Virus record (IMG/VR): IMGVR_UViG_3300029319_000003
Location: 32,001-96,000 of that record
Direction: 5' to 3' (one strand)
Length of the DNA stretch: 64,000 nucleotides
From: a virus
Below are positions 26,268 to 37,929 of this stretch, in pieces. Numbering within the stretch: the stretch's first letter is position 1; every line of letters begins with the position of its first letter. A program made the position numbers and the translations under genes. The notes under the pieces were generated by a model. It searched no databases and was not told where the DNA came from. It saw only the letters and a list, made by a program, of their open reading frames with translations.

Positions 26268-26275
26268 TAACTAGT
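26268..26275 (-). promoter_or_regulatory. Candidate late promoter ACTAGTTA
   Basis: Abuts the TMP stop; about 20 nt upstream of the ATG at 26248. Confidence 0.55.
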
Positions 26276-29200
26276 TAACTGCCAAATATAACATTGTTCT
26301 TCTTGTTCATGGCAACCTCGACGGCGCGGGCAAACTCTCTCTCATTGAGGACCATAACAATTTCTTTGTTACTTTCGCTTGATGCCGTCATTGCTTTTGC
26401 ACTGGACTCAAGAGCACGCAAGAAGGGGTCGAACATTGGCCACCTCATGTCATCTTGAATCTCTTCATAGCGCTGTGCCTGATCAACCAATTGCATTGTA
26501 TTATCAACAACTTGTGGAGTGACCTTGACCCCGGCGTCTGCAAGTTTTTCCCAAGAATCGGCATAAACACCGAATGTAATCATCTTCTTCGTCGGCATCA
26601 TCCATAGCGCCCACGCCATCGACCAAATTGCACTCGATAGCATCCAAATTCCAGCCGCCATGCGGAACAATGGAGACTCGGCTATCGTCTGGAACAATTC
26701 CATAAGTTGCTCCATCACATCCATACTGTTTCGCAACTGCTCAAGCGCTTGATGGAAAACTAAGGTGGCTTCGCCCACTCTCTCCATAGAAAATACAAAC
26801 ATATTGAATGCCCACGAACTCTTTGCAATCATCAGCAACGCCAAGTTAAGCGGGAACATGGCATAAGCAATTTTGCGAAGACCCTTCGCAGTCTTCTTCA
26901 TGTTGGTCATGTTTGATAGCGCGGTAAAGATAACGCCTAACGCGGCACCTGTTTCGGGAGGGATTTTAGCAAATGCATCTGCAAGCATATTAATAACTCT
27001 TCCGAGAGAGCGAACACCCTTACTAAAGCCGGGAACCAGCGCTGCGAGTCCGAAAGCGATGAGCCCTGCTCCAAGAACCATCAGAGCCGGTCCTAACATT
27101 AGCAACCCAAGGGCGATTGCGGGCATTGATGACGCAATCGGTCCTAACAGCACCAGCAGGTTTACAAGTTGAGTCAGGGCACTCCCGCCGAGTGTCATGC
27201 CGAGGAAGATAAAAATCATCGCAATAAAAAACAAGACTGCTGCTGGAAGTAAGAATAGTGACCCGATAAAGAAGAAGAAAGCCCCGAACATCAACAATGG
27301 TCCCGCGAGCGCTATAGCCAGTGCAAACGGAATAAGAAGTCCGGTAACAGTTGCAAGAGAAGAACCTCCTAGCATGTTAATTGCCACAGCGAATATTAAG
27401 AATGCGACGGCAGCAATCATCATCGCAACGCCAAGGAAGATCAGCGCCTGCGCCATTATTATCATTGCTGTTGCGGCAACGGGTGCAATCGGAGCCAGAG
27501 CAGCGAAGATCATAATCAACCCTGCCACAACAAGACCCAAAAACAATAATGCCAGCGCAGCCAAGAATGCCTGACCGGGGGTTTGCATCAAAAGCCAAAT
27601 AAGGACAACAAACGACACCACAATCACGATCACGGCAAGAGCAACCATTGCAATCGCAATAGCCAGCGCGATAGCGGCTAACGCCACAAAGATAACAATC
27701 GGAAGAGCCGCATACAACACGGCAGTAAGAGCACCGAACGCAGGAGTTGCACCAGCAGAGGCTACACCTGCGGCTGTCGTTCCAGCAGCAGAGCCACCCA
27801 TCGCTACACCAAAGAAGGTCGCCACACCGGCGGCAATTCCCTTAATAGTCGTTATGACCCCCATGATCATTGCATATGCTTTTGACACCACGGTCAATGT
27901 AATAAAAATACCTACAAGAATACCGAACGCGGTAACGAGGAAATCCGCAACTGGACCCATGCTCAAAAAGCCATCCAACAGAAAGTGGATTCCCGAAACT
28001 AGCGGCTCGACTGCTACTGCCAACATTCCCATGATTGCATGCATTTTATCCATCATGGTTGCCGTTGCCGCTGTCGCTTCTGCAAGTTGTTCTTCGCTAA
28101 CTGCTGCTTCCTCCGCTGCTGCTTGTGCTTCTTGCACCCCGCTAGCACCGGTAGCAAATAATTTTTGTGCCTCTGCCATGTCGGTGATGCCAGCGGCATT
28201 AGCAAGAGCCTTTTGTTCGAACCTATCCATTGAATCCCAAGACTTGCCTGATGCAGCAACTCCGTCGAGGATCATCTGAATTCTTTCGTCTTCCGAGGCG
28301 TTCAACAGATCCATTGAGTTGAGAAGATCGCCGCCGAGGACAGCGTTCAGTTGCCCTGCGGCTTGTGCCGCACCTTCGAACGTATCCATGCCCTCGGTTA
28401 TTGCAATCAAAGACTGGACTTCCAATCCGGTAGCCTTTGCTGTTGCTGCAAGTTTCTTAAACACAGCCGGCGCATCTTTACCATATTTTGCCAAGGTCGG
28501 CATTGCCGCTTCAAAACCAGCCGCCATTTCAGCAGGGGCAATTCCTAGACCAATTGCTGTTCTAGCCAAATCGCTGTTGACAGCCATCGCTTCGTTTGCC
28601 GTCATTCCCATGCCAGTCACAAACTGGTTATTAAGATTTGCGGTTGTCTGGGTTGAAACACCAAGACGATCCAATGCCGCTGCTTGACCGGCGACCGCTG
28701 CTTGGGCTTCGGCTGGCAATCCAGAAAATGCTGCCATGCCACTTTGCAAAGATGCAACCGCTGCACCGGCTTCTGCCATGTTTACACCGAACTGTCTGGT
28801 ATCTGCCTGAACGTCCATCATGACGCCCCGCATTGAGTGACCTTGACCCGTTGCAGCAGCAAGAGAGGCACCTGCTTGATCGACCTCCAGAACCATCATC
28901 ATCGTGGACTGGACAATCTTTGTGCCGATGCTGTAAAGAATGTCGGCTGGGTTTAGCGCTTCTTTAATGCCATCTGTAACAGCACCCCAGCCACCTTCTG
29001 TGGCGAAAACCTGACCTAAATAAGAGTCCTGCCAACTTGAAAGCCCAAGAGCGCCTTGCAGCGTTTTTTTCGATGCGGCGGTGATCCGATCTTGAGCATC
29101 CATCTGCTCATTTTGCTTGTCAAGAATCTCTTCCTGCTTTTGAAGAGTCTTTTCTAATTCTGCATTATAAGTGCCTGCTGCCTGTGCAGCCGCACGAATG

Positions 29201-29442
29201 TTGGCAATCTCAGTTGCTCGCAGATCATTTTGGGCACGTTGTTTATCACGCCCGTCATCCATAAGATCAACAAGGATCTGCTCATTAGCAACGGATTCCT
29301 GTTGAGCAGAGATCGTGTCCCGAATGGCTTGGGCTTTTGCCTTTGCTTTATCAGTACCTTCCTGCTCTAATTGATTAATCCGCTCAAGAATTGCTTCATA
29401 TTCTTCTGCAAGTGCTGGATCTGGTCCATTTCCCTCTGACAT
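26275..29442 (-). CDS. Tape measure protein
   Basis: 1055 aa, Ala-rich and helical, with a long hydrophobic middle section; position upstream of baseplate genes. Confidence 0.85.
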   Translation of the reverse strand: MSEGNGPDPALAEEYEAILERINQLEQEGTDKAKAKAQAIRDTISAQQESVANEQILVDLMDDGRDKQRAQNDLRATEIANIRAAAQAAGTYNAELEKTLQKQEEILDKQNEQMDAQDRITAASKKTLQGALGLSSWQDSYLGQVFATEGGWGAVTDGIKEALNPADILYSIGTKIVQSTMMMVLEVDQAGASLAAATGQGHSMRGVMMDVQADTRQFGVNMAEAGAAVASLQSGMAAFSGLPAEAQAAVAGQAAALDRLGVSTQTTANLNNQFVTGMGMTANEAMAVNSDLARTAIGLGIAPAEMAAGFEAAMPTLAKYGKDAPAVFKKLAATAKATGLEVQSLIAITEGMDTFEGAAQAAGQLNAVLGGDLLNSMDLLNASEDERIQMILDGVAASGKSWDSMDRFEQKALANAAGITDMAEAQKLFATGASGVQEAQAAAEEAAVSEEQLAEATAATATMMDKMHAIMGMLAVAVEPLVSGIHFLLDGFLSMGPVADFLVTAFGILVGIFITLTVVSKAYAMIMGVITTIKGIAAGVATFFGVAMGGSAAGTTAAGVASAGATPAFGALTAVLYAALPIVIFVALAAIALAIAIAMVALAVIVIVVSFVVLIWLLMQTPGQAFLAALALLFLGLVVAGLIMIFAALAPIAPVAATAMIIMAQALIFLGVAMMIAAVAFLIFAVAINMLGGSSLATVTGLLIPFALAIALAGPLLMFGAFFFFIGSLFLLPAAVLFFIAMIFIFLGMTLGGSALTQLVNLLVLLGPIASSMPAIALGLLMLGPALMVLGAGLIAFGLAALVPGFSKGVRSLGRVINMLADAFAKIPPETGAALGVIFTALSNMTNMKKTAKGLRKIAYAMFPLNLALLMIAKSSWAFNMFVFSMERVGEATLVFHQALEQLRNSMDVMEQLMELFQTIAESPLFRMAAGIWMLSSAIWSMAWALWMMPTKKMITFGVYADSWEKLADAGVKVTPQVVDNTMQLVDQAQRYEEIQDDMRWPMFDPFLRALESSAKAMTASSESNKEIVMVLNEREFARAVEVAMNKKNNVIFGS

Positions 29443-29899: not shown

Positions 29900-30088
29900 T
29901 TATTCGTCTTCGTTTTTCTTGATAATTTCTTTGCAGACCAGTTCAGAGCGCTTGATACTTCTCATTTTTAAAACTTCTTCAATCAGCGTTTCTCGATCTG
30001 TCTCTTCTTTAATTTTTTTAACGGATTCATCCGTGGCATTCCGCAGATATGCCAATATCTTCCAGTTGAGTTTATCCTCATTATTCAT
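29900..30088 (-). CDS. Hypothetical protein
   Basis: 62 aa, GGAGGGA RBS. Confidence 0.6.
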   Translation of the reverse strand: MNNEDKLNWKILAYLRNATDESVKKIKEETDRETLIEEVLKMRSIKRSELVCKEIIKKNEDE

Positions 30089-30123
30089 TGTAGTTTCCCT
30101 CCTACAAAACCTATTCTACAATT

Positions 30124-30354
30124 TTACAGCGCCAGCCATCCTGCGATCCCGAGTATGGATATACCCCCTAATAATGCGGTAATCGCAGTGAACATAAATA
30201 GTTTTTCTGACAGTGAAAGCCTCGGTTTAAAATCTTTTTTCAACATTTCGCGAACTAAAGCATCAAACTCTTCATCAGTACCTTCATGAATTGCACTGGC
30301 AACTCTTTTCTCATCCATAATCTTTTGAAGTTCAATGATGTTGTTCTCTTCCAT
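30124..30354 (-). CDS. Small membrane protein
   Basis: 76 aa with C-terminal hydrophobic segment LFMFTAITALLGGISILGIAGWLAL. Confidence 0.65.
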   Translation of the reverse strand: MEENNIIELQKIMDEKRVASAIHEGTDEEFDALVREMLKKDFKPRLSLSEKLFMFTAITALLGGISILGIAGWLAL

Positions 30355-30357
30355 GTT

Positions 30358-31389
30358 TTAGGCTCCCGTATCCCCTGTGTCTGCGGAGTCGTCGTCATCT
30401 CCATCTTCGACGGGCTCATAATGATATGCAATCTCCACCAAGACATTGGCACCGGGAATTACCGTAAACTCCACGGAGTTGGTGGCTGGATCGAATACCC
30501 AATCCCAGTTCAGCACGCCGTTGTGAAATACCCGAATTGTGTCTTCATGAGAGGGGATGTGTGTAAGATCCCAGTACTCATGAGGCTCAACGGAGTTTGA
30601 CGCATCGGTTACACCGGGTGCCCAATCTTCGTCGCAAATGTCAACAATGACACCTCCAAAGTAATTTGTAGCCTCGATGTATCGGTCACCAATATTAATT
30701 ATGCTTGGCGGGGAGGCACACACGGAGTCTGCCTGCTCTACGTTCACCACGCTGGCAACAAACGCAGACCCACCACGAAGAGCGCCAAACCAGTTGGTGA
30801 AGTCTACCACATCGATCATGTAGTCATCGCTTTGCTCCTCTTCATCAGAAACAAAGACAACCAACAGCGCAGCGTCGGGACGCAACCAAGTGCTAGCATA
30901 AGAGTTGTTTTGAATATACTCATATACTGCATCGAACCCTTCTTCACGATGACCAGTGCCCATTGCATTGTACATATCAATGGCGTCAGCAATATCATCG
31001 CCGGGTACCAGCGGGAACTGTGATTCGCCAAGAGCCGCAACGGGGTCGTTGCTCATCATGGCGAGCCGCCAGCCTGATTCTGGCAAGGCATTCATCATCG
31101 CCTCGATGCCCAACAACAAATCAGGCTCGTATTGATACATTGATCCAGATGTGTCGATTACCCATAAAATATCGACGCCATCTACACTTGCTGGCTGGAC
31201 AAAGTGATCCACCCAAATTTCACCATAATCAGTCTCGCCGGGGATCTCGACATATTCAGTCTCACCCGGTACTTCTACATAAACTGTTTCGGTTTCAGCA
31301 TACCTTGCTGTAATTGCATAATCAGAACAGCCTACGACACTCCCTGCAAGCAGGAGCATCGCGACTGCAAGCCTCGCGAATTTGCCCAT
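30358..31389 (-). CDS. vWA-domain lipoprotein
   Basis: Lipobox-like VVGC after a hydrophobic signal; MIDAS DILWVIDTSGSM and LLVVFVSDEEEQS; VEVPGETEY repeats. Confidence 0.8.
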   Translation of the reverse strand: MGKFARLAVAMLLLAGSVVGCSDYAITARYAETETVYVEVPGETEYVEIPGETDYGEIWVDHFVQPASVDGVDILWVIDTSGSMYQYEPDLLLGIEAMMNALPESGWRLAMMSNDPVAALGESQFPLVPGDDIADAIDMYNAMGTGHREEGFDAVYEYIQNNSYASTWLRPDAALLVVFVSDEEEQSDDYMIDVVDFTNWFGALRGGSAFVASVVNVEQADSVCASPPSIINIGDRYIEATNYFGGVIVDICDEDWAPGVTDASNSVEPHEYWDLTHIPSHEDTIRVFHNGVLNWDWVFDPATNSVEFTVIPGANVLVEIAYHYEPVEDGDDDDSADTGDTGA

Positions 31390-31479
31390 TCCATAACTTC
31401 CTCCAGAGACATTGCCCTTGCCTCATTTGTAACTATGAGGAAAAAACACAAATCTCTTAGGAAGTATGAAATAAATATT

Positions 31480-32088
31480 TTATTCGGCTTCGTCTTTTGC
31501 GAGCAGTTCGTCCACCCAGCCTTCAACAAGTTCCTGACTCCACCCGTGGACTCCAGCATGAATGACCATTTCTCGGTCAATAGCAAGAATTGTCGGATAG
31601 CCTGATACTGGGTAACCATCTTCTGCCGAGTAGTCAACAACACTGGAATCGCCCTGCAAAACTGGAGATACGCTGGGGATTCCATAAATGACCGCCCAAT
31701 CTTGCACATCGTGCAGTTCAACTGAACCGCCGGCATGGTCTTGAAGTAAGACCGTAATCCACACCACGCCATCTTCGTTATACTTTGTGACGTGTGAGGC
31801 GACCTGTGATGCCGCCGCTTGGCACGGTCCACACCATACCACCGAAAAGTCTAAAATAATAATTTTTCCGTAGTAGTCGTCATACAAGGACACCATTTCA
31901 TCTGCCTGATCTTTAAAAGAAAAATCACAAGCATGATCTCCAATCTTGCCGCCGCAATCATCCCATGTTATAGGGTTCGGCTCTTCATCTACAACTTCGG
32001 TGTCAACCACCAACTCCGCACCATTTTTACATCCACTGGTACAACCTGCGGTCAACAATGCCATCATTAATATAAGAAAGTTTTTCAT
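31480..32088 (-). CDS. Thioredoxin-fold (TlpA/redoxin) lipoprotein
   Basis: Start 32088 with GGAGGG RBS; lipobox-like TAGC; IILDFSVVWCGPC; GYPTILAIDREM (cis-Pro). Confidence 0.85.
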   Translation of the reverse strand: MKNFLILMMALLTAGCTSGCKNGAELVVDTEVVDEEPNPITWDDCGGKIGDHACDFSFKDQADEMVSLYDDYYGKIIILDFSVVWCGPCQAAASQVASHVTKYNEDGVVWITVLLQDHAGGSVELHDVQDWAVIYGIPSVSPVLQGDSSVVDYSAEDGYPVSGYPTILAIDREMVIHAGVHGWSQELVEGWVDELLAKDEAE

Positions 32089-32123
32089 GTTCTTTCCCTC
32101 CAAAAGTAATTATCAGGCTATTA

Positions 32124-32157
32124 AATAAAAAACCGGAGATGTAAAAACATCTCCGGT
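32124..32157 (-). terminator. Rho-independent terminator
   Basis: Perfect 11-bp stem ACCGGAGATGT / ACATCTCCGGT, 4-nt loop, T tract on the minus strand. Confidence 0.85.
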
Positions 32158-32189
32158 CGAATCCAAGGTTGCCGTCGCTTATCTGGAAG

Positions 32190-32436
32190 TTATGGTTTGG
32201 GCAAACCGCTCGGCATACTTGGCTTACTTGGCTTCGATGGGGAGGACCGGTTTCCGCGACCCTTGTTCATTGCATCTTCTTCTGTCTTAAGTTGTTTTGT
32301 CAATCTCTCAACAAACCACCTTCTTAAACCGACTGGAAGACTGTATGCTTCTGTGAAACTCCACCCACCGTAATATTTCATATAGAAAAACTGTTCGTAA
32401 ACATTTTCTATGTACTTAGGACTTAGGCCAAAAAAA
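32190..32436 (-). CDS. Start-less ORF (gp51 / tail-chaperone-extension-like), probably reached by frameshift
   Basis: FFGLSPKYIENVYEQFFYMKYYGGWSFTEAYSLPVGLRRWFVERL looks protein-like; the upstream in-frame part (MRRWRWRCRLRR) is a shadow of the previous gene and lacks an RBS. Confidence 0.7.
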
Positions 32437-33315
32437 GTCCGTCGTAAACGGCACCTCCATCTCCACCTCCGCATCGCAGTGTACGCAAGCGAAGTTCTGC
32501 TTAAGATCTACGTTAGGCATGAGCGCTTGGTACAGCGTCCGCAGATAACGGGAGTCTGAAGCAGGAAGGTTATCGACGGCTTTGTTGATTGTGCTAGCAT
32601 CTGTGTGTCCCTCAACGGAGACAATCATTCGTCGCAACTGAATAGACAAAGTTGCTTCTGGCATCTTTGACTTCTTCCGCTGCTTAACTGAGTTTTGGAT
32701 TGCTTGCTCGTCTGCACCGGTCATGGCACGAACCTCAAGCGACCAACCAGACTTTGGAAGCGTAATGACATAATTATTTGTTGTGTCGTTAATGCTTACC
32801 CTCTCTAGAATGTCTGGATCCTCGCACACATCCAAATCCAAAGCCGCTTGGATTGGCGCGTCATTCAAGTCGAATGTATACTGCGACTTTTCACCACATG
32901 AAGGGCACTGGACCCCGGTTGTATAATCGGCACCGTAGGCATCGATTCTGGCAGCAACCAAAAGCGCGTTCTTATCGCCAACCAGCATGTCACCCGGTGT
33001 TACCCGACGGTCACAAATAATACTGGAAAGCATACGCTCAATCGCGATACCATTCTTAAGCAAAGAACGAGAAGTTAGAATATCTTCTTCCTTTGCTGTC
33101 ATATGGCGAATTTCCAAAGTGGTTTGTCCTGCGAGCGGATGCTCGGCAGGGTATAGCAAACCCCTTGATGGTAATTCCACATGTTCTGTTGGAGTTACAA
33201 ATGTAAGTCCACCACCACCATCTCCACCGCCACCGGGTGGCTTGCGAGCGGTAAGGGGTGGATCTGAATCGGGGCGTTGCGTACCGCCCATGCGATCCTG
33301 ATTTCTTCTACCCAT
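32416..33315 (-). CDS. gp26-like baseplate hub / tail assembly chaperone
   Basis: PTEHVELPSRG, IRHMTAKEEDILTS, CPSC...CVHC, ends FFWPKS; directly downstream of the tube gene. Confidence 0.8.
   Translation of the reverse strand: MGRRNQDRMGGTQRPDSDPPLTARKPPGGGGDGGGGLTFVTPTEHVELPSRGLLYPAEHPLAGQTTLEIRHMTAKEEDILTSRSLLKNGIAIERMLSSIICDRRVTPGDMLVGDKNALLVAARIDAYGADYTTGVQCPSCGEKSQYTFDLNDAPIQAALDLDVCEDPDILERVSINDTTNNYVITLPKSGWSLEVRAMTGADEQAIQNSVKQRKKSKMPEATLSIQLRRMIVSVEGHTDASTINKAVDNLPASDSRYLRTLYQALMPNVDLKQNFACVHCDAEVEMEVPFTTDFFWPKS
32430..32436 (-). other. Candidate slippery site UUU UUU U
   Basis: GAC TTT TTT TGG CCT AAG TCC TAA in frame 0; the +1 frame reads TTT TTT GGC CTA AGT... for 79 more codons. 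Confidence 0.65.
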
Positions 33316-33393: not shown

Positions 33394-33951
33394 TTAGGAT
33401 GAACTGCCCGGTGTGAAGAATGCATTGGTTCCCTGCGTACCGGGTCGGTTAGTCTCAAGGTAAGCCCAATCATAACGGAGTTCGATTTCCACGTCGGTCA
33501 TCTCATCACCATCGTAATCAAGTTCACCATACTTAACATCCTTAATCCATGCGTTCCAAAGCGTCCATGTTTCCACGGCTTCACCGTTTCCATCAATCTG
33601 TTGGATTTGAATTTGTCCAAGAGCGGTCGTAGCCTTTGCCTTAGACATGGTGTCCAGTGCGTCTGCGCTAAGAGCGGGAGAGTAGCCGGAACTGCGGATA
33701 ATTTGAGTTACAGTTGCGGCGGCATCGGGATCAACTGGGTCTGCCAGAGTCAAAGAAATTGTATTCCACTCAACTCTACCGGGATACCAGTAGGTGTGGT
33801 TAATATATTTATGTGATGTTTCAGATACCGTGTATGAAGGCTTTGCCACCTTCTTAAGTGTCCATGAAGGAATATGATCGTTAACCAAGATCCAGCGGTA
33901 CTGTCTCTTTGGATCTTTCATGCCTTCAGCAGCGTCAGACCAGAATGCCAT
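33394..33951 (-). CDS. Tail tube protein (gp19-like)
   Basis: DPKRQYRW, WYPGRVEWNTISLTLADPV, ETWTLWNAWI..VKYGELDY...VEIELRYDWA. Confidence 0.9.
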   Translation of the reverse strand: MAFWSDAAEGMKDPKRQYRWILVNDHIPSWTLKKVAKPSYTVSETSHKYINHTYWYPGRVEWNTISLTLADPVDPDAAATVTQIIRSSGYSPALSADALDTMSKAKATTALGQIQIQQIDGNGEAVETWTLWNAWIKDVKYGELDYDGDEMTDVEIELRYDWAYLETNRPGTQGTNAFFTPGSSS

Positions 33952-34029: not shown

Positions 34030-37000
34030 TTAATCGTCAAATGACGCTCCACTATCCGTAATCACGAAGTCAATCGCAATAAACTCAATTGCACGGGCAG
34101 GCTTCAGAAGAATCTTAGCGTACATAATGTTTCTATCAATCAACTCTGGTGTAGTAGTGGTTTCGTCAAGGATGACTCGGAACTCAGTAAGACCGAACCG
34201 AGACTGGACACTTGCCAAGAATGGCTTCACCCGAGAGGTGAATCGTGACCATGTAGTCTGGACGTTCTGGTCGAAGAGGACCGTTGCAGCCATACGAGAT
34301 ACCTGCTTCTTGATGAAAATCATCAAGCGACGTACATTGATGCGGTCGAGAGCAGACTGTGTGACCTGAAGGGTCTTCTGTCCGAACACTACAATGCCTT
34401 CTGCTGGGAACTGTGCGATGGGGTTAATATTTGCCTCATACAGCAGATCCCGTTCCTTAGAGTTCAAGCGGTGTCGCACGTTCAAGACGGGGATACCGGC
34501 AGCACCTTCTGTCAGACCACCACGGGTGAATCCAGCAGGGGCGAACCAAACTTCAGTCTTGCGCTGCGAACTTGACATAGTACCGAGAGCCACGATTGAA
34601 GGTGGAGCCCACAGAAGTGAGTTCTGATCTTGGTCGCGAATCTGGACCCAAGGGAAGTAAGCACAACCGTAACTTGAATTCAAGCCGCGATCTTGTAGGC
34701 TACTCACCGCCGAGGACACACTTGGCAAACGGTTGGCTTCGGAATCTGTGCCTTCTGTTGAAGGAACATAGTCATTCTGAAGGTCGATAATTGCAAGAGC
34801 ATCAGCGCGGTTCTCGCATGCATTAATCATGTGCTCCGTCAAGCCGGGGTTTGTGATACCGGGCATTGCCATCAAGTTGCACTCGACAACTTCAGGGTCT
34901 GCAACGGAATCCACAGCACGCTTGATTGAGTTGTAAGCATAGTGCGTAAGGCTGCTCTGACCGCTCAGTCCAGTATTGCGGAATGGCTCTTGCTCCATAA
35001 TGTCAAGTCCATCGCAACCACCCCAGACTGGCATTGTGAACCGGTCGAAGCCGGATGACAACACTTGGTTGTAAGTTCCACTCACAGCGGTTAATGAGTG
35101 TCCACCCGAGCGGTTTCCATTTGCCCATGAGGCATGTGTTGTGGAGCCGGCGACCAGTCGCACATCGTCAAGAGAGAAGAACTCTCCATACTCTGTTTGA
35201 TTTTCTGTAACTGTCCATGCGCCTGTTCCAACCTCATTGGTGGTTGACCAAGGACGCCCAAGGTCTTCGTAACTCACATCGTGGCGAGCAGAGCCTGTCT
35301 TGGAAGTCATAAGACCCCAATAAGCATCCTTTGGATTGGAAACATCGCCCTGACTGGAACTCACGCGCAACTGATACTTCGGGAAGTGAAGGTCGATATG
35401 TGCGCCGGGAATATTTCCAGCCCAAATGTCGCCCTGACGAGCCTTCCATGTGGCTGTGTCGGCAGAGGCGCTAATAAGCACGTCTGTCGCGGAACCTCTT
35501 GCCGTACCCGTAGCGATACCCCAGTAGTATGAGTATTCATCGCCATATGCGAACGGCTGGGTAACCTGACTGCTTGTGCCGACGGTGTGAATATCACCAG
35601 AGGCGGCAGCGACGGCAGCAGGGGTTGAAGTCAGTGAGGTTGGATCGCCAACTGTGGCGCTCTTCCAGCGAGCCTTTCCATAGTATCCGAAAGGAAGGAG
35701 AGATGGATCGGTAACACCGGTATCCACATCTTCGTTCATTTCCATACGGAAGAATCGAGACTGGTTGTTGAAGCGACCATAAGTCTTGAATCGACCCTCT
35801 GAGTAATCCCAAGTAGAGTACATATCGCCAACCTTGCGAGCAACATAGTTCTCGGAGTTGGGGTTGAGGTTACAACTTGAGAAACGCTCAACGATCCGTG
35901 GAGCATTGTCCTTGTCGTTGGCACGACGCACAACAATACTGAAGGAGCCGTAAGGTTCAAACTCATTTGTTGATGCCTTAATGTCTTCGATAGAAATCTT
36001 AAGGTTTTGCTGTTCCCACTCGCCACTGTAAAGTCCGTGGAACTTCATCAACTTAGTGACAGGATACTCACCGTCGGAATCAGGAACGAACAGCGAACCT
36101 GAGCCAAGGTGTTGCGAGACAACCCAACCACTCTGGGCTGGACGTGCGCTAACACGGTTGTCAGACTGATCTGCACCAGAGGATGCCATTTGCTTCAGTG
36201 GCACCAGAGCCGCCATTTGTGAACCGGCAGCAGTGGTAGCAGACAAACTATGTCCAAGATACTGATCAAAAGTCTCTCCGAGCCAGAATGTCTTTACTTG
36301 CGCCGAATTCGTAATTGTATCGTTGCACAGCGTTGGGTTCGTGTTGAGAACCTTTCGGGCATACTTCTTAGATGCCGGTGCCATGTTGAAAGAAATTGTA
36401 TCTTGCACAACATCGGACTTGTTACGAACACGCAACTTAAATTCATAATCTGAACCATCGGATTGAATCCACATTCCTGCTCCGTCGCGGGCAACACCAG
36501 CCAAGTCGTTTCCGACCAGTGTCAGAGCGCCCTCGTCAGCGTAAATAACTGCGGCAAGGTGGGCATCGCCCAAGTCTTGAGCAGAGCCAGATGCGGCAAC
36601 AGGACCAGTAGCAAGACCATCAGAGGAAAAGTCCACGACAGTCATGCTGTTAATATCTTCACTAATACTGCTCGCTACGCCAGCAGCGCCGGGAATGAAC
36701 TTGTTGGTAACCGTGACTACAGCGTCAGCAGCAGAGGCACCAAGCATGTAAGCCGAAGAGTCACTGGCGGCAGCAGAGCCACTTACGATTTGCTTTGCAA
36801 TGTGTGTTGCAAGCGCAGCGTTGGTGGCGGCAGAAGCGTCAGCCTCAAACCATACCCAAGTGTTGTCAGGGGTAGCAGCATTAACTGAGAAATCTTGATA
36901 TGAAGTGGAGATGGCAGCACCGCCGAAAGCAGGAGTGCCACGGGCTGTGAATCCCTTGAACTCCATCTTGAATGCCTTCGATCCTTTAATTTCTACCTTT

Positions 37001-37929
37001 CCGCTAGCGTCAAGTTGACCGGCTGTTGAACTGCTCTTCTGGTAAATAACAACATAACCCGAGGATGGGCTCATGGTGCCAATAGCGTCAGCCACATCGT
37101 GAGCAGCAGAGCCACCTGTTCCACCGGTGAGCGAGTTTCCAAGACCGTTTGTGGTGTGTACAAAAGTAGTACCGACGACAGCGCCAAAGTGACTAGCAGA
37201 TGCATTAATGTCGGTAACAATGTTAGCCGCGCTCCAAGCACCTGCTCGGAGGTTGATTGTGTCTTCACCGGCACTGCAAGAAAGAATCAAGTTTCCGTCG
37301 CCGCCGTATGTTCCACCGGCTTCATAGATTACACCCCAAGCGTTCATGGATGTTCCTTCGCGGAACTTGATAGTATCGGAAGAGCCGTCTGCCTTGTATG
37401 AAATTTCAGAGTCAACAGCACCATTTGCTGTGCCGTGATCTAACAGTCGGGCGTATGTGCCGCCCATCGTCAAAGATGCAGTTGCGTTTGTAACGCCGGC
37501 AAAATCAGCGACAAACAGACCATATGCAGCAGCGTTTGCATTTACATTGGTTCCAAGCGTACCAGAAACCTTCCAACCAGCACGGGTTGCAGAGGCACTA
37601 TAATCATCATGATCAGCGCCAAGCAGCCTCACATATGTAAGCGGTCCAGAGTTGCGGAGGTATGCTTGTGCAGCATATGCACCGTATGTTGGACCGAGGC
37701 GGTTGCCTTCTCGCCAAACATCGCCACCCTTTCCACCGGGAACGGGCATTCCGAATGTCTCAACGAATTCAGAAAATGAATCGACCTTCGTAGGGACTAA
37801 ACCGGGTCCGCGCTCTGCGCGACCGATAACCACCGGACCCATTTCTGCTGGGGCTTTCGGTAGTTGTGAGTTATCAATCTCATTCAGGAAAATTCCCGGT
37901 GATACAAACTTAAACTTTTTAACTGACAT
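34030..37929 (-). CDS. Contractile tail sheath protein (gp18-like), greatly enlarged
   Basis: N-terminal FVSPGIFLNEIDNS; C-terminal WFAPAGFTRG, INPIAQFP, GQKTLQ, RINVRRL, IEFIAIDF; 1299 aa. Confidence 0.95.
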   Translation of the reverse strand: MSVKKFKFVSPGIFLNEIDNSQLPKAPAEMGPVVIGRAERGPGLVPTKVDSFSEFVETFGMPVPGGKGGDVWREGNRLGPTYGAYAAQAYLRNSGPLTYVRLLGADHDDYSASATRAGWKVSGTLGTNVNANAAAYGLFVADFAGVTNATASLTMGGTYARLLDHGTANGAVDSEISYKADGSSDTIKFREGTSMNAWGVIYEAGGTYGGDGNLILSCSAGEDTINLRAGAWSAANIVTDINASASHFGAVVGTTFVHTTNGLGNSLTGGTGGSAAHDVADAIGTMSPSSGYVVIYQKSSSTAGQLDASGKVEIKGSKAFKMEFKGFTARGTPAFGGAAISTSYQDFSVNAATPDNTWVWFEADASAATNAALATHIAKQIVSGSAAASDSSAYMLGASAADAVVTVTNKFIPGAAGVASSISEDINSMTVVDFSSDGLATGPVAASGSAQDLGDAHLAAVIYADEGALTLVGNDLAGVARDGAGMWIQSDGSDYEFKLRVRNKSDVVQDTISFNMAPASKKYARKVLNTNPTLCNDTITNSAQVKTFWLGETFDQYLGHSLSATTAAGSQMAALVPLKQMASSGADQSDNRVSARPAQSGWVVSQHLGSGSLFVPDSDGEYPVTKLMKFHGLYSGEWEQQNLKISIEDIKASTNEFEPYGSFSIVVRRANDKDNAPRIVERFSSCNLNPNSENYVARKVGDMYSTWDYSEGRFKTYGRFNNQSRFFRMEMNEDVDTGVTDPSLLPFGYYGKARWKSATVGDPTSLTSTPAAVAAASGDIHTVGTSSQVTQPFAYGDEYSYYWGIATGTARGSATDVLISASADTATWKARQGDIWAGNIPGAHIDLHFPKYQLRVSSSQGDVSNPKDAYWGLMTSKTGSARHDVSYEDLGRPWSTTNEVGTGAWTVTENQTEYGEFFSLDDVRLVAGSTTHASWANGNRSGGHSLTAVSGTYNQVLSSGFDRFTMPVWGGCDGLDIMEQEPFRNTGLSGQSSLTHYAYNSIKRAVDSVADPEVVECNLMAMPGITNPGLTEHMINACENRADALAIIDLQNDYVPSTEGTDSEANRLPSVSSAVSSLQDRGLNSSYGCAYFPWVQIRDQDQNSLLWAPPSIVALGTMSSSQRKTEVWFAPAGFTRGGLTEGAAGIPVLNVRHRLNSKERDLLYEANINPIAQFPAEGIVVFGQKTLQVTQSALDRINVRRLMIFIKKQVSRMAATVLFDQNVQTTWSRFTSRVKPFLASVQSRFGLTEFRVILDETTTTPELIDRNIMYAKILLKPARAIEFIAIDFVITDSGASFDD

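What the first reader, a model, noticed from the sequence alone, without database searches (positions are those of the whole stretch)
32190..32474. Probable programmed +1 (or -2) ribosomal frameshift on a U7 run in a T4-gp26-like tail chaperone
Seen: the gp26-like ORF ends GAC TTT TTT TGG CCT AAG TCC TAA (7 T; plus strand 32430-32436). The +1 frame from this run stays open for 79 codons of protein-like sequence (GLSPKYIENVYEQFFYMKYYGGWSFTEAYSLPVGLRRWFVERL...), followed by a strong terminator. I find no RBS-supported start for it: ATG 32474 gives MRRWRWRCR, and ATG 32381 has no Shine-Dalgarno. Known: long-tailed phages make a tail-chaperone pair by frameshifting (lambda G/GT at -1, Mu at -2); T4 gp26 and gp51 are separate genes. 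Inference: a roughly 374-aa transframe fusion is made alongside the 299-aa protein, via a frame unusual for this system.
Basis: partly seen in the sequence, partly recalled or inferred. Interest (0 to 1): 0.82.

Follow-up and report, generated by a model that had tools for sequence, protein, structure and literature searches.

The report
Frameshift in phage tail chaperone gene
One tail-assembly gene of this 184-kb marine phage very probably makes a short and a long protein because some ribosomes slip forward one base on a run of seven U's; phage T4 makes the same pair from two separate genes (26 and 51), which would explain why T4 looked like the exception to a rule of long-tailed phages.

Summary
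The 299-aa ORF (32416-33315, minus strand) ends on a T7 run (32430-32436), and the +1 frame stays open for 79 more codons up to a strong terminator.

Comparative evidence for recoding is strong:
- In 77 of 80 related viral contigs the same T7-GG site is kept, and synonymous sites are frozen from codon -7 to +3 only.
- The +1 frame always encodes a conserved peptide that begins at the slip site.
- No start codon is conserved; 7 of 75 unique loci have none at all.

Sister clades keep the +1 arrangement on sites that are not homopolymers, such as TTT CTT TGG. More distant clades (cyanophages, PA5oct) use a canonical -1 heptamer instead. This points to ribosomal frameshifting.

The ORF belongs to Pfam PF12322, which holds both T4 gp26 and gp51, and its N-terminal domain folds like tail assembly chaperones. 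The extension is homologous to cyanophage 'gp51' and, through it, to the C-terminal 48 residues of T4 gp51. So short form = gp26 and long form = gp51.

Transcriptional slippage on the U7 run, helped by an adjacent hairpin, is not excluded for this clade. No protein or RNA data were available.

This scan has reported the same gp26/gp51 frameshift on many other genomes. I found no published report and no GenBank annotation of it.

The parts
32416..33315 (-). Zero-frame ORF of 299 aa. It is a PF12322 (T4 gp26/gp51 family) protein and the proposed short 'G-like' chaperone form.
   Evidence: Pfam PF12322 at E 9e-13, 48.8 bits against a cut-off of 24.5. phrog_150 baseplate hub. About 3979 homologues of 285-305 aa. 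AF2 model pLDDT 84. Residues about 38-136 match tail assembly chaperone folds at Z 5.5-6.8.
32430..32436 (-). U7 slip site. The zero-frame codons are TTT (32434-32436), TTT (32431-32433) and TGG (32428-32430).
   Evidence: Read directly. The site is conserved in 77 of 80 related loci. TTT is used in 149 of 150 Phe codons here, against 75% elsewhere. No indel appears in contigs of three independent studies.
32190..32429 (-). +1-frame extension of 79 codons plus stop. It is a gp51 C-terminal-like domain of three helices followed by a basic, low-complexity tail.
   Evidence: The peptide is conserved from the slip site on in all 78 loci. hhalign to the cyanophage gp51 alignment gives probability 89%, E 2e-6, over 62 columns. 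AF2 model pLDDT 84. Foldseek matches Gp51 of phage P-HM1 at TM 0.80, rmsd 1.4. It is the only copy in the 184-kb genome.
32439..32451 (-). Small GC-rich hairpin (5 bp stem, 3-nt loop) ending 2 nt 5' of the U run. It is a candidate stimulator.
   Evidence: Flagged by the scan. At least 4 bp form in 48 of 75 loci. Mean MFE is -4.8 kcal/mol against -0.43 for control windows. U-A, C-G and U-G alternate at pair 4 (Fisher p 0.004, not corrected for phylogeny).
32425..32457 (-). 33-nt island of frozen synonymous sites (codons -7 to +3). It includes a GGAGGT Shine-Dalgarno-like hexamer at 32453-32458.
   Evidence: Codon choice is ordinary at codons -27 to -11. It is strongly skewed from -7 to +3, with binomial p from 3e-5 to 1e-44. 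Metagenome k-mer depth over 32423-32469 is 20-50 times that of the flanks.
32131..32158 (-). Intrinsic terminator after the extension.
   Evidence: 12-bp stem with 6 GC pairs, followed by a T run.
33394..33951 (-). Tail tube gene, immediately upstream.
   Evidence: phrog_4542 tail tube at E 1e-25, and PF06841. A tube gene lies upstream in 77 of 78 loci.
26275..29442 (-). Tape measure protein gene (1055 aa). It lies downstream, separated from the chaperone by an inserted cassette.
   Evidence: ORF listing. In relatives the tape measure gene follows the extension directly.

Best explanation
A programmed +1 ribosomal frameshift makes two forms of one tail/hub assembly chaperone.

Most ribosomes finish the 299-aa protein, the counterpart of T4 gp26. 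A minority pause with peptidyl-tRNA-Phe on a UUU codon and the Trp codon UGG waiting in the A site. The tRNA re-pairs one base forward on UUU, and GGC is then read. Translation continues for 79 codons. The result is a 374-aa protein whose extra C-terminal domain matches that of T4 gp51.

The small hairpin 2 nt 5' of the E-site codon may push the shift forward and suppress -1 slippage.

By analogy with lambda G/GT, the shared part would hold the tape measure or hub, and the extension would recruit another tail component.

Shown here: conservation of the site, of the frame and of the peptide; absence of a conserved start; family and fold assignments.

Inferred: that slippage happens, its direction and efficiency, the role of the hairpin, and the binding partners.
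For: Within this clade:
- Site and frame: 77 of 80 related loci keep T7-GG, all with the conserved peptide in the +1 frame and a closed -1 frame.
- Synonymous sites are frozen only around the site.
- No conserved start: 7 of 75 loci have no ATG, GTG or TTG before the conserved motif. The commonest ATG (41 of 75) has no SD and is ATA in the window. An invariant Tyr lies upstream of it.

The shift is ribosomal and forward:
- L046 has TTC TTT TGG.
- In the immuto clade, 33 loci have TTT CTT TGG and 4 have TTT CTA TGG.
- Gram-positive phages have TTC TTT CGT and similar sites.
- All of these keep the +1 frame.

Recoding is a property of the whole family:
- PA5oct, Atu_ph07 and 63 of 63 cyanophage loci use a T_TTT_TT(C/A) heptamer with the domain in the -1 frame.
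- In the cyanophage loci a 3' stem-loop follows in most, and 28 of the 63 have no ATG.

Genome content and identity of the parts:
- The genome has one PF12322 gene and one copy of the extension.
- The extension matches cyanophage gp51, which in turn matches the T4 gp51 C-terminus.
- T4 gp26 and gp51 both belong to PF12322.
- Synteny fits, and so does the chaperone fold.
- An upstream hairpin next to the E site stimulates +1 frameshifting on 70S ribosomes (PMC6321510).
Against: - There is no protein, reporter or RNA evidence.
- If UUU_U alone were enough, strict conservation of all seven U's would be unnecessary. The first TTT is kept in 74 of 75 loci, and a hairpin-plus-U7 layout also fits transcriptional slippage.
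- The hairpin is absent or weak in about a third of this clade and in the T7-bearing loci of the immuto clade.
- RNAalifold found no conserved structure.
- The SD-like hexamer lies 19-20 nt upstream, too far for the prfB mechanism.
- One distant huge phage (LR756511) encodes the domain as a separate ATG gene. About half the cyanophage loci have an ATG, and P-HM1, where I read the context, also has an SD. So independent expression of the domain can work.
Confidence: 0.7

Rival explanations
1. Transcriptional slippage. RNA polymerase, paused on the rU:dA hybrid of the U7 run with the nascent hairpin directly behind it, realigns and makes some transcripts with six U's. Standard translation of those transcripts gives the same 374-aa protein.
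For: - The hairpin at 32439-32451 plus AC plus U7 has the geometry of an intrinsic terminator.
- It also resembles the hairpin-stimulated one-base deletion described for a Roseiflexus IS element (Atkins 2016 review, PMC5009743).
- All seven U's and the preceding C are frozen.
- A one-U deletion gives exactly the +1 frame.
- Four rare database ORFs read through as ...DFFGL....
Against: - Sister clades keep the +1 arrangement on sites with only 3-4 U's in a row, where polymerase slippage is not expected.
- The family's -1 members use canonical ribosomal heptamers, in the cyanophages with 3' stem-loops.
- According to the same review, efficient bacterial polymerase slippage needs about 9 identical bases unless helped.
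- The hairpin is missing in many loci that have T7.
Confidence: 0.14
2. A -2 ribosomal frameshift on the U7 run, giving a 375-aa product with three Phe at the junction.
For: The U7 run allows perfect re-pairing two bases back. Conservation of the first TTT codon would be explained.
Against: Relatives with TTC TTT TGG, TTT CTT TGG or TTT CTA TGG cannot re-pair at -2 yet keep the same frame. The four read-through ORFs have two Phe, not three.
Confidence: 0.05
3. No fusion protein is made. The downstream ORF is translated alone, by reinitiation after the zero-frame stop or from a non-canonical start. The conserved run then only reflects overlapping coding constraints.
For: ATG sits 8 codons into the +1 peptide, just after the stop, in 41 of 75 loci. 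The domain is a separate ATG gene in LR756511. In P-HM1 it has its own ATG and SD.
Against: - The window has ATA at that position.
- 7 of 75 loci have no start at all.
- Conserved residues precede the ATG.
- TTT over TTC and GAC over GAT are not explained by the +1-frame coding upstream of the site.
Confidence: 0.08
4. A homopolymer sequencing error or a decaying gene. The true gene would be a single 374-aa ORF, or the extension would be dead.
For: Homopolymer runs are error-prone. Four fused ORFs exist in the databases.
Against: T7 is seen in 77 of 80 independent contigs and in contigs from three separate studies. About 4000 homologues are 285-305 aa long and only 4 partial fused ORFs were found. 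The extension is under clear purifying selection.
Confidence: 0.01

Closest known systems
Lambda gpG/gpGT and P2 gpE/gpE+E' tail assembly chaperone frameshift (Levin 1993; Xu, Hendrix and Duda 2004; reviewed in PMC5009743)
   Same: - Two overlapping ORFs lie after the tube gene and before the tape measure.
- The second ORF has no start of its own.
- A conserved slippery site sits at the end of the first ORF.
- The first ORF has a chaperone-like fold.
   Different: - The shift is +1 on UUU_U(GG), not -1 on a heptamer.
- The protein is about twice as long and carries a Cys4 zinc-ribbon-like C-terminal half.
- It belongs to a different sequence family (PF12322).
- A four-gene cassette separates it from the tape measure in this phage.
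Phage T4 gp26 (208 aa) and gp51 (249 aa), hub assembly chaperones (Leiman 2010, PMC3004832)
   Same: Both are PF12322 members, like the window ORF. gp51 extends beyond gp26 by 48 residues. The extension starts at the position that corresponds to the slip site and is homologous to the window's extension by way of cyanophage gp51.
   Different: T4 encodes the two forms as separate, divergently transcribed paralogues with no frameshift. A direct profile comparison of the window's extension with T4 gp51 is negative.
T4-like cyanophage gp26 plus 'gp51' (for example Prochlorococcus phage P-HM1)
   Same: The gene pair is the same, with the same order and the same two domains. The extension is unannotated as a fusion.
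   Different: The shift is -1 on T_TTT_TT(C/A), with a stem-loop 5 nt downstream in most loci. About half of the loci also have an ATG for the small ORF, and P-HM1 has an SD as well.
prfB (RF2) +1 frameshift
   Same: P-site re-pairing one base forward onto UUU, and a slowly decoded A site. The immuto clade even has CUU_U.
   Different: The A site holds a sense codon (UGG), not a stop. There is no SD 3 nt upstream; a hairpin sits next to the E site instead. The function is not autoregulatory.
Hairpin-stimulated transcriptional slippage of Roseiflexus IS630 (Penno 2015, as summarised in PMC5009743)
   Same: A nascent hairpin lies directly 5' of a slippage-prone run, and a one-base deletion gives the productive frame.
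   Different: Here the run is U7, the hairpin is weak, and relatives manage without a homopolymer. No transcript data are available.

Membership tests
G/GT-type tail assembly chaperone frameshift pair | Overlapping ORF pair between the tube (major tail) gene and the tape measure gene | tested here: met
   Order is tube 33394-33951, the ORF pair, then the tape measure at 26275-29442, with a four-gene insert. The genes are directly adjacent in immuto, HSE3, LIS04, SP-15 and BRock.
G/GT-type tail assembly chaperone frameshift pair | Conserved slippery sequence near the end of ORF1 | tested here: met
   T7-GG in 77 of 80 loci, with frozen synonymous sites.
G/GT-type tail assembly chaperone frameshift pair | ORF2 lacks its own conserved start and RBS | tested here: met
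   no positionally conserved start, and 7 of 75 loci have none.
G/GT-type tail assembly chaperone frameshift pair | Shift direction is -1 (the usual case) | tested here: not met
   ORF2 is in the +1 frame and the -1 frame closes after 4 codons. +1 and -2 exceptions are known in the literature (PMC5009743).
G/GT-type tail assembly chaperone frameshift pair | Tail assembly chaperone fold in ORF1 | tested here: inconclusive
   The top three of 48161 chains are 3fgx (Z 6.8), the HK97 chaperone 2ob9 (Z 5.6) and YqbN 3klu (Z 5.5), all on residues 38-136; the next match has Z 3.9. 2ob9 is titled a tail assembly chaperone; that 3fgx and YqbN are chaperones too is my own recall, not the entries' titles. 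These Z values are below the tool's usual noise ceiling. Foldseek was not significant.
G/GT-type tail assembly chaperone frameshift pair | Both products are made at a set ratio, are needed for assembly and are absent from virions | not testable with these tools
   No RNA or protein data. No RNA run was listed.
G/GT-type tail assembly chaperone frameshift pair | The shared part binds the tape measure and the extension binds the tube protein | not testable with these tools
Pfam PF12322 T4_baseplate (T4 gp26 and gp51) | HMM score above the gathering cut-off | tested here: met
   48.8 bits against 24.5, profile positions 12-219 of 219. T4 gp26 scores 215.6 bits and gp51 scores 177.5 bits.
gp51 C-terminal domain (Pfam 38.1 PF28602 Gp51_C; not in the local library) | Profile similarity of the extension to cyanophage gp51 | tested here: met
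   hhalign probability 89%, E 2e-6, 62 colinear columns. Foldseek TM 0.80 to P-HM1 Gp51. Atlas lead at score 0.89.
gp51 C-terminal domain (Pfam 38.1 PF28602 Gp51_C; not in the local library) | Direct profile similarity of the extension to T4 gp51 residues 202-249 | tested here: not met
   hhalign probability 0.2% and nothing from hmmsearch. The link is only transitive, through cyanophage gp51: probability 95.7%, E 1e-8.
Pfam PF20546 DUF6760 | HMM score above the gathering cut-off | tested here: not met
   18.2 bits against 27. 18 of 32 clade members hit at E up to 0.01, best 1.7e-4.
prfB-type +1 frameshift | [quoted passage not shown] | tested here: not met
   GGAGGT lies 19-20 nt upstream and the A-site codon is UGG.
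Hairpin-dependent transcriptional slippage | Nascent hairpin directly 5' of the slippage motif | tested here: inconclusive
   Present in the window and in 48 of 75 loci. Absent from other T7-bearing relatives. Transcripts could not be examined.

The most novel reading that the evidence does not exclude
The PF12322 family is the tail/hub assembly chaperone of T4-like and many other large myoviruses, and it was ancestrally expressed as a G/GT-type frameshift pair. Lineages have switched between +1 sites (UUU_Y, here with a 5' hairpin) and -1 sites (U_UUU_UUC/A, in the cyanophages with a 3' hairpin). T4 itself replaced the frameshift by gene duplication, so that gp26 is the short form and gp51 the long form. 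This would remove the textbook 'except T4' exception and give the enigmatic gp51 a defined role.
Probability: 0.6. Interest if true: 0.75.

Novelty: new variant of a known kind. Interest (0 to 1): 0.62.

Why it matters
Frameshift-made chaperone pairs are described as a near-universal feature of long-tailed phages, with T4 as the stated exception (PMC5009743). This locus and its relatives suggest the T4 lineage follows the same logic in a different protein family.

- The marine clade uses an unusual +1 site.
- The pair is missed by gene callers and by the GenBank annotation of every cultured relative I inspected: immuto, Mel-JY01, HSE3, SP-15, LIS04, BRock, PA5oct, Atu_ph07 and P-HM1.
- The result gives a testable role for T4 gp26 and gp51.
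- It offers a natural set of matched +1 and -1 sites with oppositely placed hairpins for studying what sets the direction of frameshifting.
- It allows a simple correction to the annotation of thousands of phage genomes.

Tried and rejected
Searches that found nothing useful:
- tblastn of the extension against the phage collection found no match.
- Sequence searches of solved structures gave nothing for either part.
- Foldseek against the PDB was not significant.
- RNAalifold found no conserved structure around the site in this clade, nor over the cyanophage site when run on all sequences together. Direct pair counts were used instead.
- Direct comparison of the extension with T4 gp51 was negative. 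The link was found only through cyanophage gp51.
- DUF6760 stays below its cut-off.
- A search for longer, naturally fused homologues found only four partial ORFs reading ...FFGL... (three of them ...DFFGL...), whose sources could not be traced.

Data and tools that were not available:
- No RNA holder was listed for this stretch, so expression and transcript heterogeneity could not be examined.
- Complex prediction (tube protein plus extension) was busy twice.
- Two papers on haloarchaeal viruses with a reported +1 chaperone frameshift were not held.

Other points:
- No tRNA genes lie in the window.
- Literature searches for a report of a gp26/gp51 or PF12322 frameshift found none. The library lacks most subscription journals, so this absence is weak evidence.

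Full report
**1. The observation.**
The feature lies on the minus strand. A 299-aa ORF (32416-33315) ends GAC TTT TTT TGG CCT AAG TCC TAA. The seven T's are A7 on the plus strand at 32430-32436.
- The +1 frame runs from GGC at 32429 through 79 sense codons to a stop at 32190-32192.
- A 12-bp-stem terminator follows at 32131-32158.
- The -1 frame closes after four codons.
- Gene order on this strand is sheath (34030-37929), tube (33394-33951), this ORF pair, a four-gene insert, then a 1055-aa tape measure (26275-29442).
- The window belongs to a 184-kb viral record judged complete.
- Contigs from three independent marine metagenome studies cross the run without an indel, so it is not an assembly artefact.

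**2. Conservation in the clade.**
The ORF has about 4000 homologues, all 285-305 aa long, with an almost invariant C-terminal DFFWP motif. I analysed 80 related viral contigs.
- 77 have the T7-GG site.
- In every one of them the +1 frame carries a conserved peptide that starts right at the site and runs 57-92 codons.
- The -1 frame is closed.

Among 75 unique loci, synonymous codon choice is ordinary from codon -27 to -11. It is frozen from -7 to +3:

| Codon | Share here | Share elsewhere in the gene |
|---|---|---|
| GAG | 0.97 | 0.37 |
| CCG | 0.76 | 0.16 |
| GCG | 0.69 | 0.14 |
| GAC | 1.00 | 0.33 |
| TTT (two codons) | 149 of 150 | 0.75 |
| CCT | 1.00 | 0.25 |

Metagenome k-mer depth over 32423-32469 is 20-50 times that of the flanks. 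Many co-occurring phages therefore share this island at the nucleotide level.

**3. No independent start.**
Between the upstream +1-frame stop and the conserved VYE motif there is no positionally conserved start.
- Seven of 75 loci have no ATG, GTG or TTG at all.
- In nine loci the +1 frame opens only three codons before the site.
- The commonest ATG (41 of 75) has no Shine-Dalgarno sequence, is ATA in the window, and lies downstream of an invariant Tyr.

A search for longer proteins found only four partial ORFs that read straight through as ...FFGL... (three of them ...DFFGL...). These are probably T6 variants or errors. The genome has a single PF12322 gene and a single copy of the extension. 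A long form can therefore arise only by recoding.

**4. Mechanism.**
Relatives without a homopolymer keep the +1 arrangement.
- L046 has TTC TTT TGG.
- In the Flavobacterium phage immuto clade, 33 loci have TTT CTT TGG, 4 have TTT CTA TGG and 41 have T7-GG.
- Bacillus, Listeria, Streptococcus and Streptomyces phages have TTC TTT CGT, TTT TTT CAC, CTG TTT CGC and similar sites.

The common denominator is a Phe UUU codon followed by U or C. This allows perfect forward re-pairing of tRNA-Phe but not -2 re-pairing.

More distant members place the same domain in the -1 frame behind a canonical heptamer.
- PA5oct and Atu_ph07 do this.
- So do all 63 unique cyanophage loci examined. Most have a stem-loop 5 nt downstream, and its stem sequence differs between lineages. 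28 of the 63 lack any ATG for the small ORF.

A family that switches direction while keeping direction-appropriate slippery sites argues for ribosomal frameshifting.

In the window's clade a small hairpin (32439-32451) ends 2 nt before the E-site codon. It forms at least 4 bp in 48 of 75 loci and has some covariation. Upstream hairpins next to the E site stimulate +1 and damp -1 frameshifting on 70S ribosomes (PMC6321510).

The same hairpin-plus-U7 layout also resembles an intrinsic terminator, and the hairpin-stimulated polymerase slippage of a Roseiflexus IS element (PMC5009743). A one-U deletion in the transcript would give the same protein. I could not examine RNA, so this rival stays open for this clade.

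**5. What the proteins are.**
The ORF hits Pfam PF12322 above its cut-off. T4 gp26 and T4 gp51 both hit this family strongly, at 8.8e-64 and 3.9e-52, so they are paralogues. In T4 they are separate, divergently transcribed genes.
- The profile ends at the FF motif in all three proteins.
- gp26 stops there, and gp51 continues for 48 residues.

The AF2 model of the window ORF (pLDDT 84) matches many phage 'baseplate hub' models.
- In a Foldseek-independent scan of 48161 chains, its three best matches are 3fgx, the HK97 tail assembly chaperone 2ob9 and YqbN 3klu (Z 6.8, 5.6, 5.5). All three align to residues 38-136.
- I take all three to be tail assembly chaperones. For 3fgx and YqbN this rests on my recall of their families, not on the entry titles.
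- The next match has Z 3.9.
- These Z values are modest, so I treat the fold as supportive rather than proven.

The extension folds as three helices.
- It resembles the 53-aa 'Gp51' of Prochlorococcus phage P-HM1: TM 0.80, rmsd 1.4 Å, with an E-value that is not significant.
- Profile comparison gives probability 89%, E 2e-6, over 62 colinear columns to the cyanophage gp51 alignment.
- That alignment in turn matches T4 gp51 residues 206-244 at probability 95.7%, E 1e-8.
- Direct comparison with T4 gp51 fails, so the link is transitive.
- DUF6760 is a sub-threshold resemblance only.

**6. Comparison with what is known, and novelty.**
The logic is that of lambda G/GT and P2 E/E+E'. A 2016 review states that this frameshift is conserved in long-tailed phages 'except T4', and notes a likely +1 case in a haloarchaeal myovirus (PMC5009743). 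Leiman et al. list gp26 and gp51 as hub assembly chaperones (PMC3004832).

I found no paper reporting a gp26/gp51-family frameshift. None of the GenBank records I inspected annotates one. The library is incomplete, so prior publication cannot be excluded.

This scan has flagged the same phenomenon on many other genomes. Earlier follow-ups reached the same gp26/gp51 reading. I reached it here from my own Pfam, fold and profile tests.

**7. Verdict.**
- Recoding of some kind: about 0.9.
- +1 ribosomal frameshifting as the mechanism: about 0.7.

It is a new variant of a known kind, and of moderate to high interest to phage-assembly and recoding specialists.

Noticed in passing
window 29900-32103: Four genes separate the chaperone pair from the tape measure, which are adjacent in relatives. 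They include an AhpC/TSA-thioredoxin-fold lipoprotein-like ORF (31480-32103) and a weak VWA-domain ORF (30358-31389).
   Followed up: partly
L201-L280 (cyanophage contigs); L200:2150-2360 (P-HM1): T4-like cyanophages carry what looks like a canonical -1 frameshift cassette between gp26 and the small 'gp51'. The T_TTT_TT(C/A) heptamer is present in 63 of 63 unique loci. A stem-loop lies 5 nt downstream in most, with different stem sequences in divergent members. 28 of the 63 have no ATG for gp51. GenBank annotates two separate genes.
   Followed up: partly
L093 (LR756511, 595-kb uncultured phage) about 2740-2960: Here the gp51-like domain is a separate ORF with its own ATG right after the stop of a longer PF12322 gene. 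This is an example of the pair without a frameshift.
   Followed up: no
L095-L099: A Bacillus-phage-related clade keeps the extension in the +1 frame, but its site (TTA TTT AAT, or TTA TTC AAT) offers no clean forward re-pairing. The mechanism there is unexplained.
   Followed up: no
window 32423-32469 and 33034-33127: Metagenome contigs break at these two short stretches and k-mer depth spikes there. These are nucleotide islands shared by many co-occurring phages. The second lies in the conserved HMTAKEEDILTS region of the same gene.
   Followed up: no
window 34030-37929: The tail sheath ORF is unusually long at 1299 aa.
   Followed up: no
window 32416-33315, residues C137, C140, C277, C280: Two invariant CxxC pairs far apart in the sequence suggest a single Cys4 zinc site that ties the C-terminal half together. 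Weak zinc-ribbon Pfam hits fit this.
   Followed up: no
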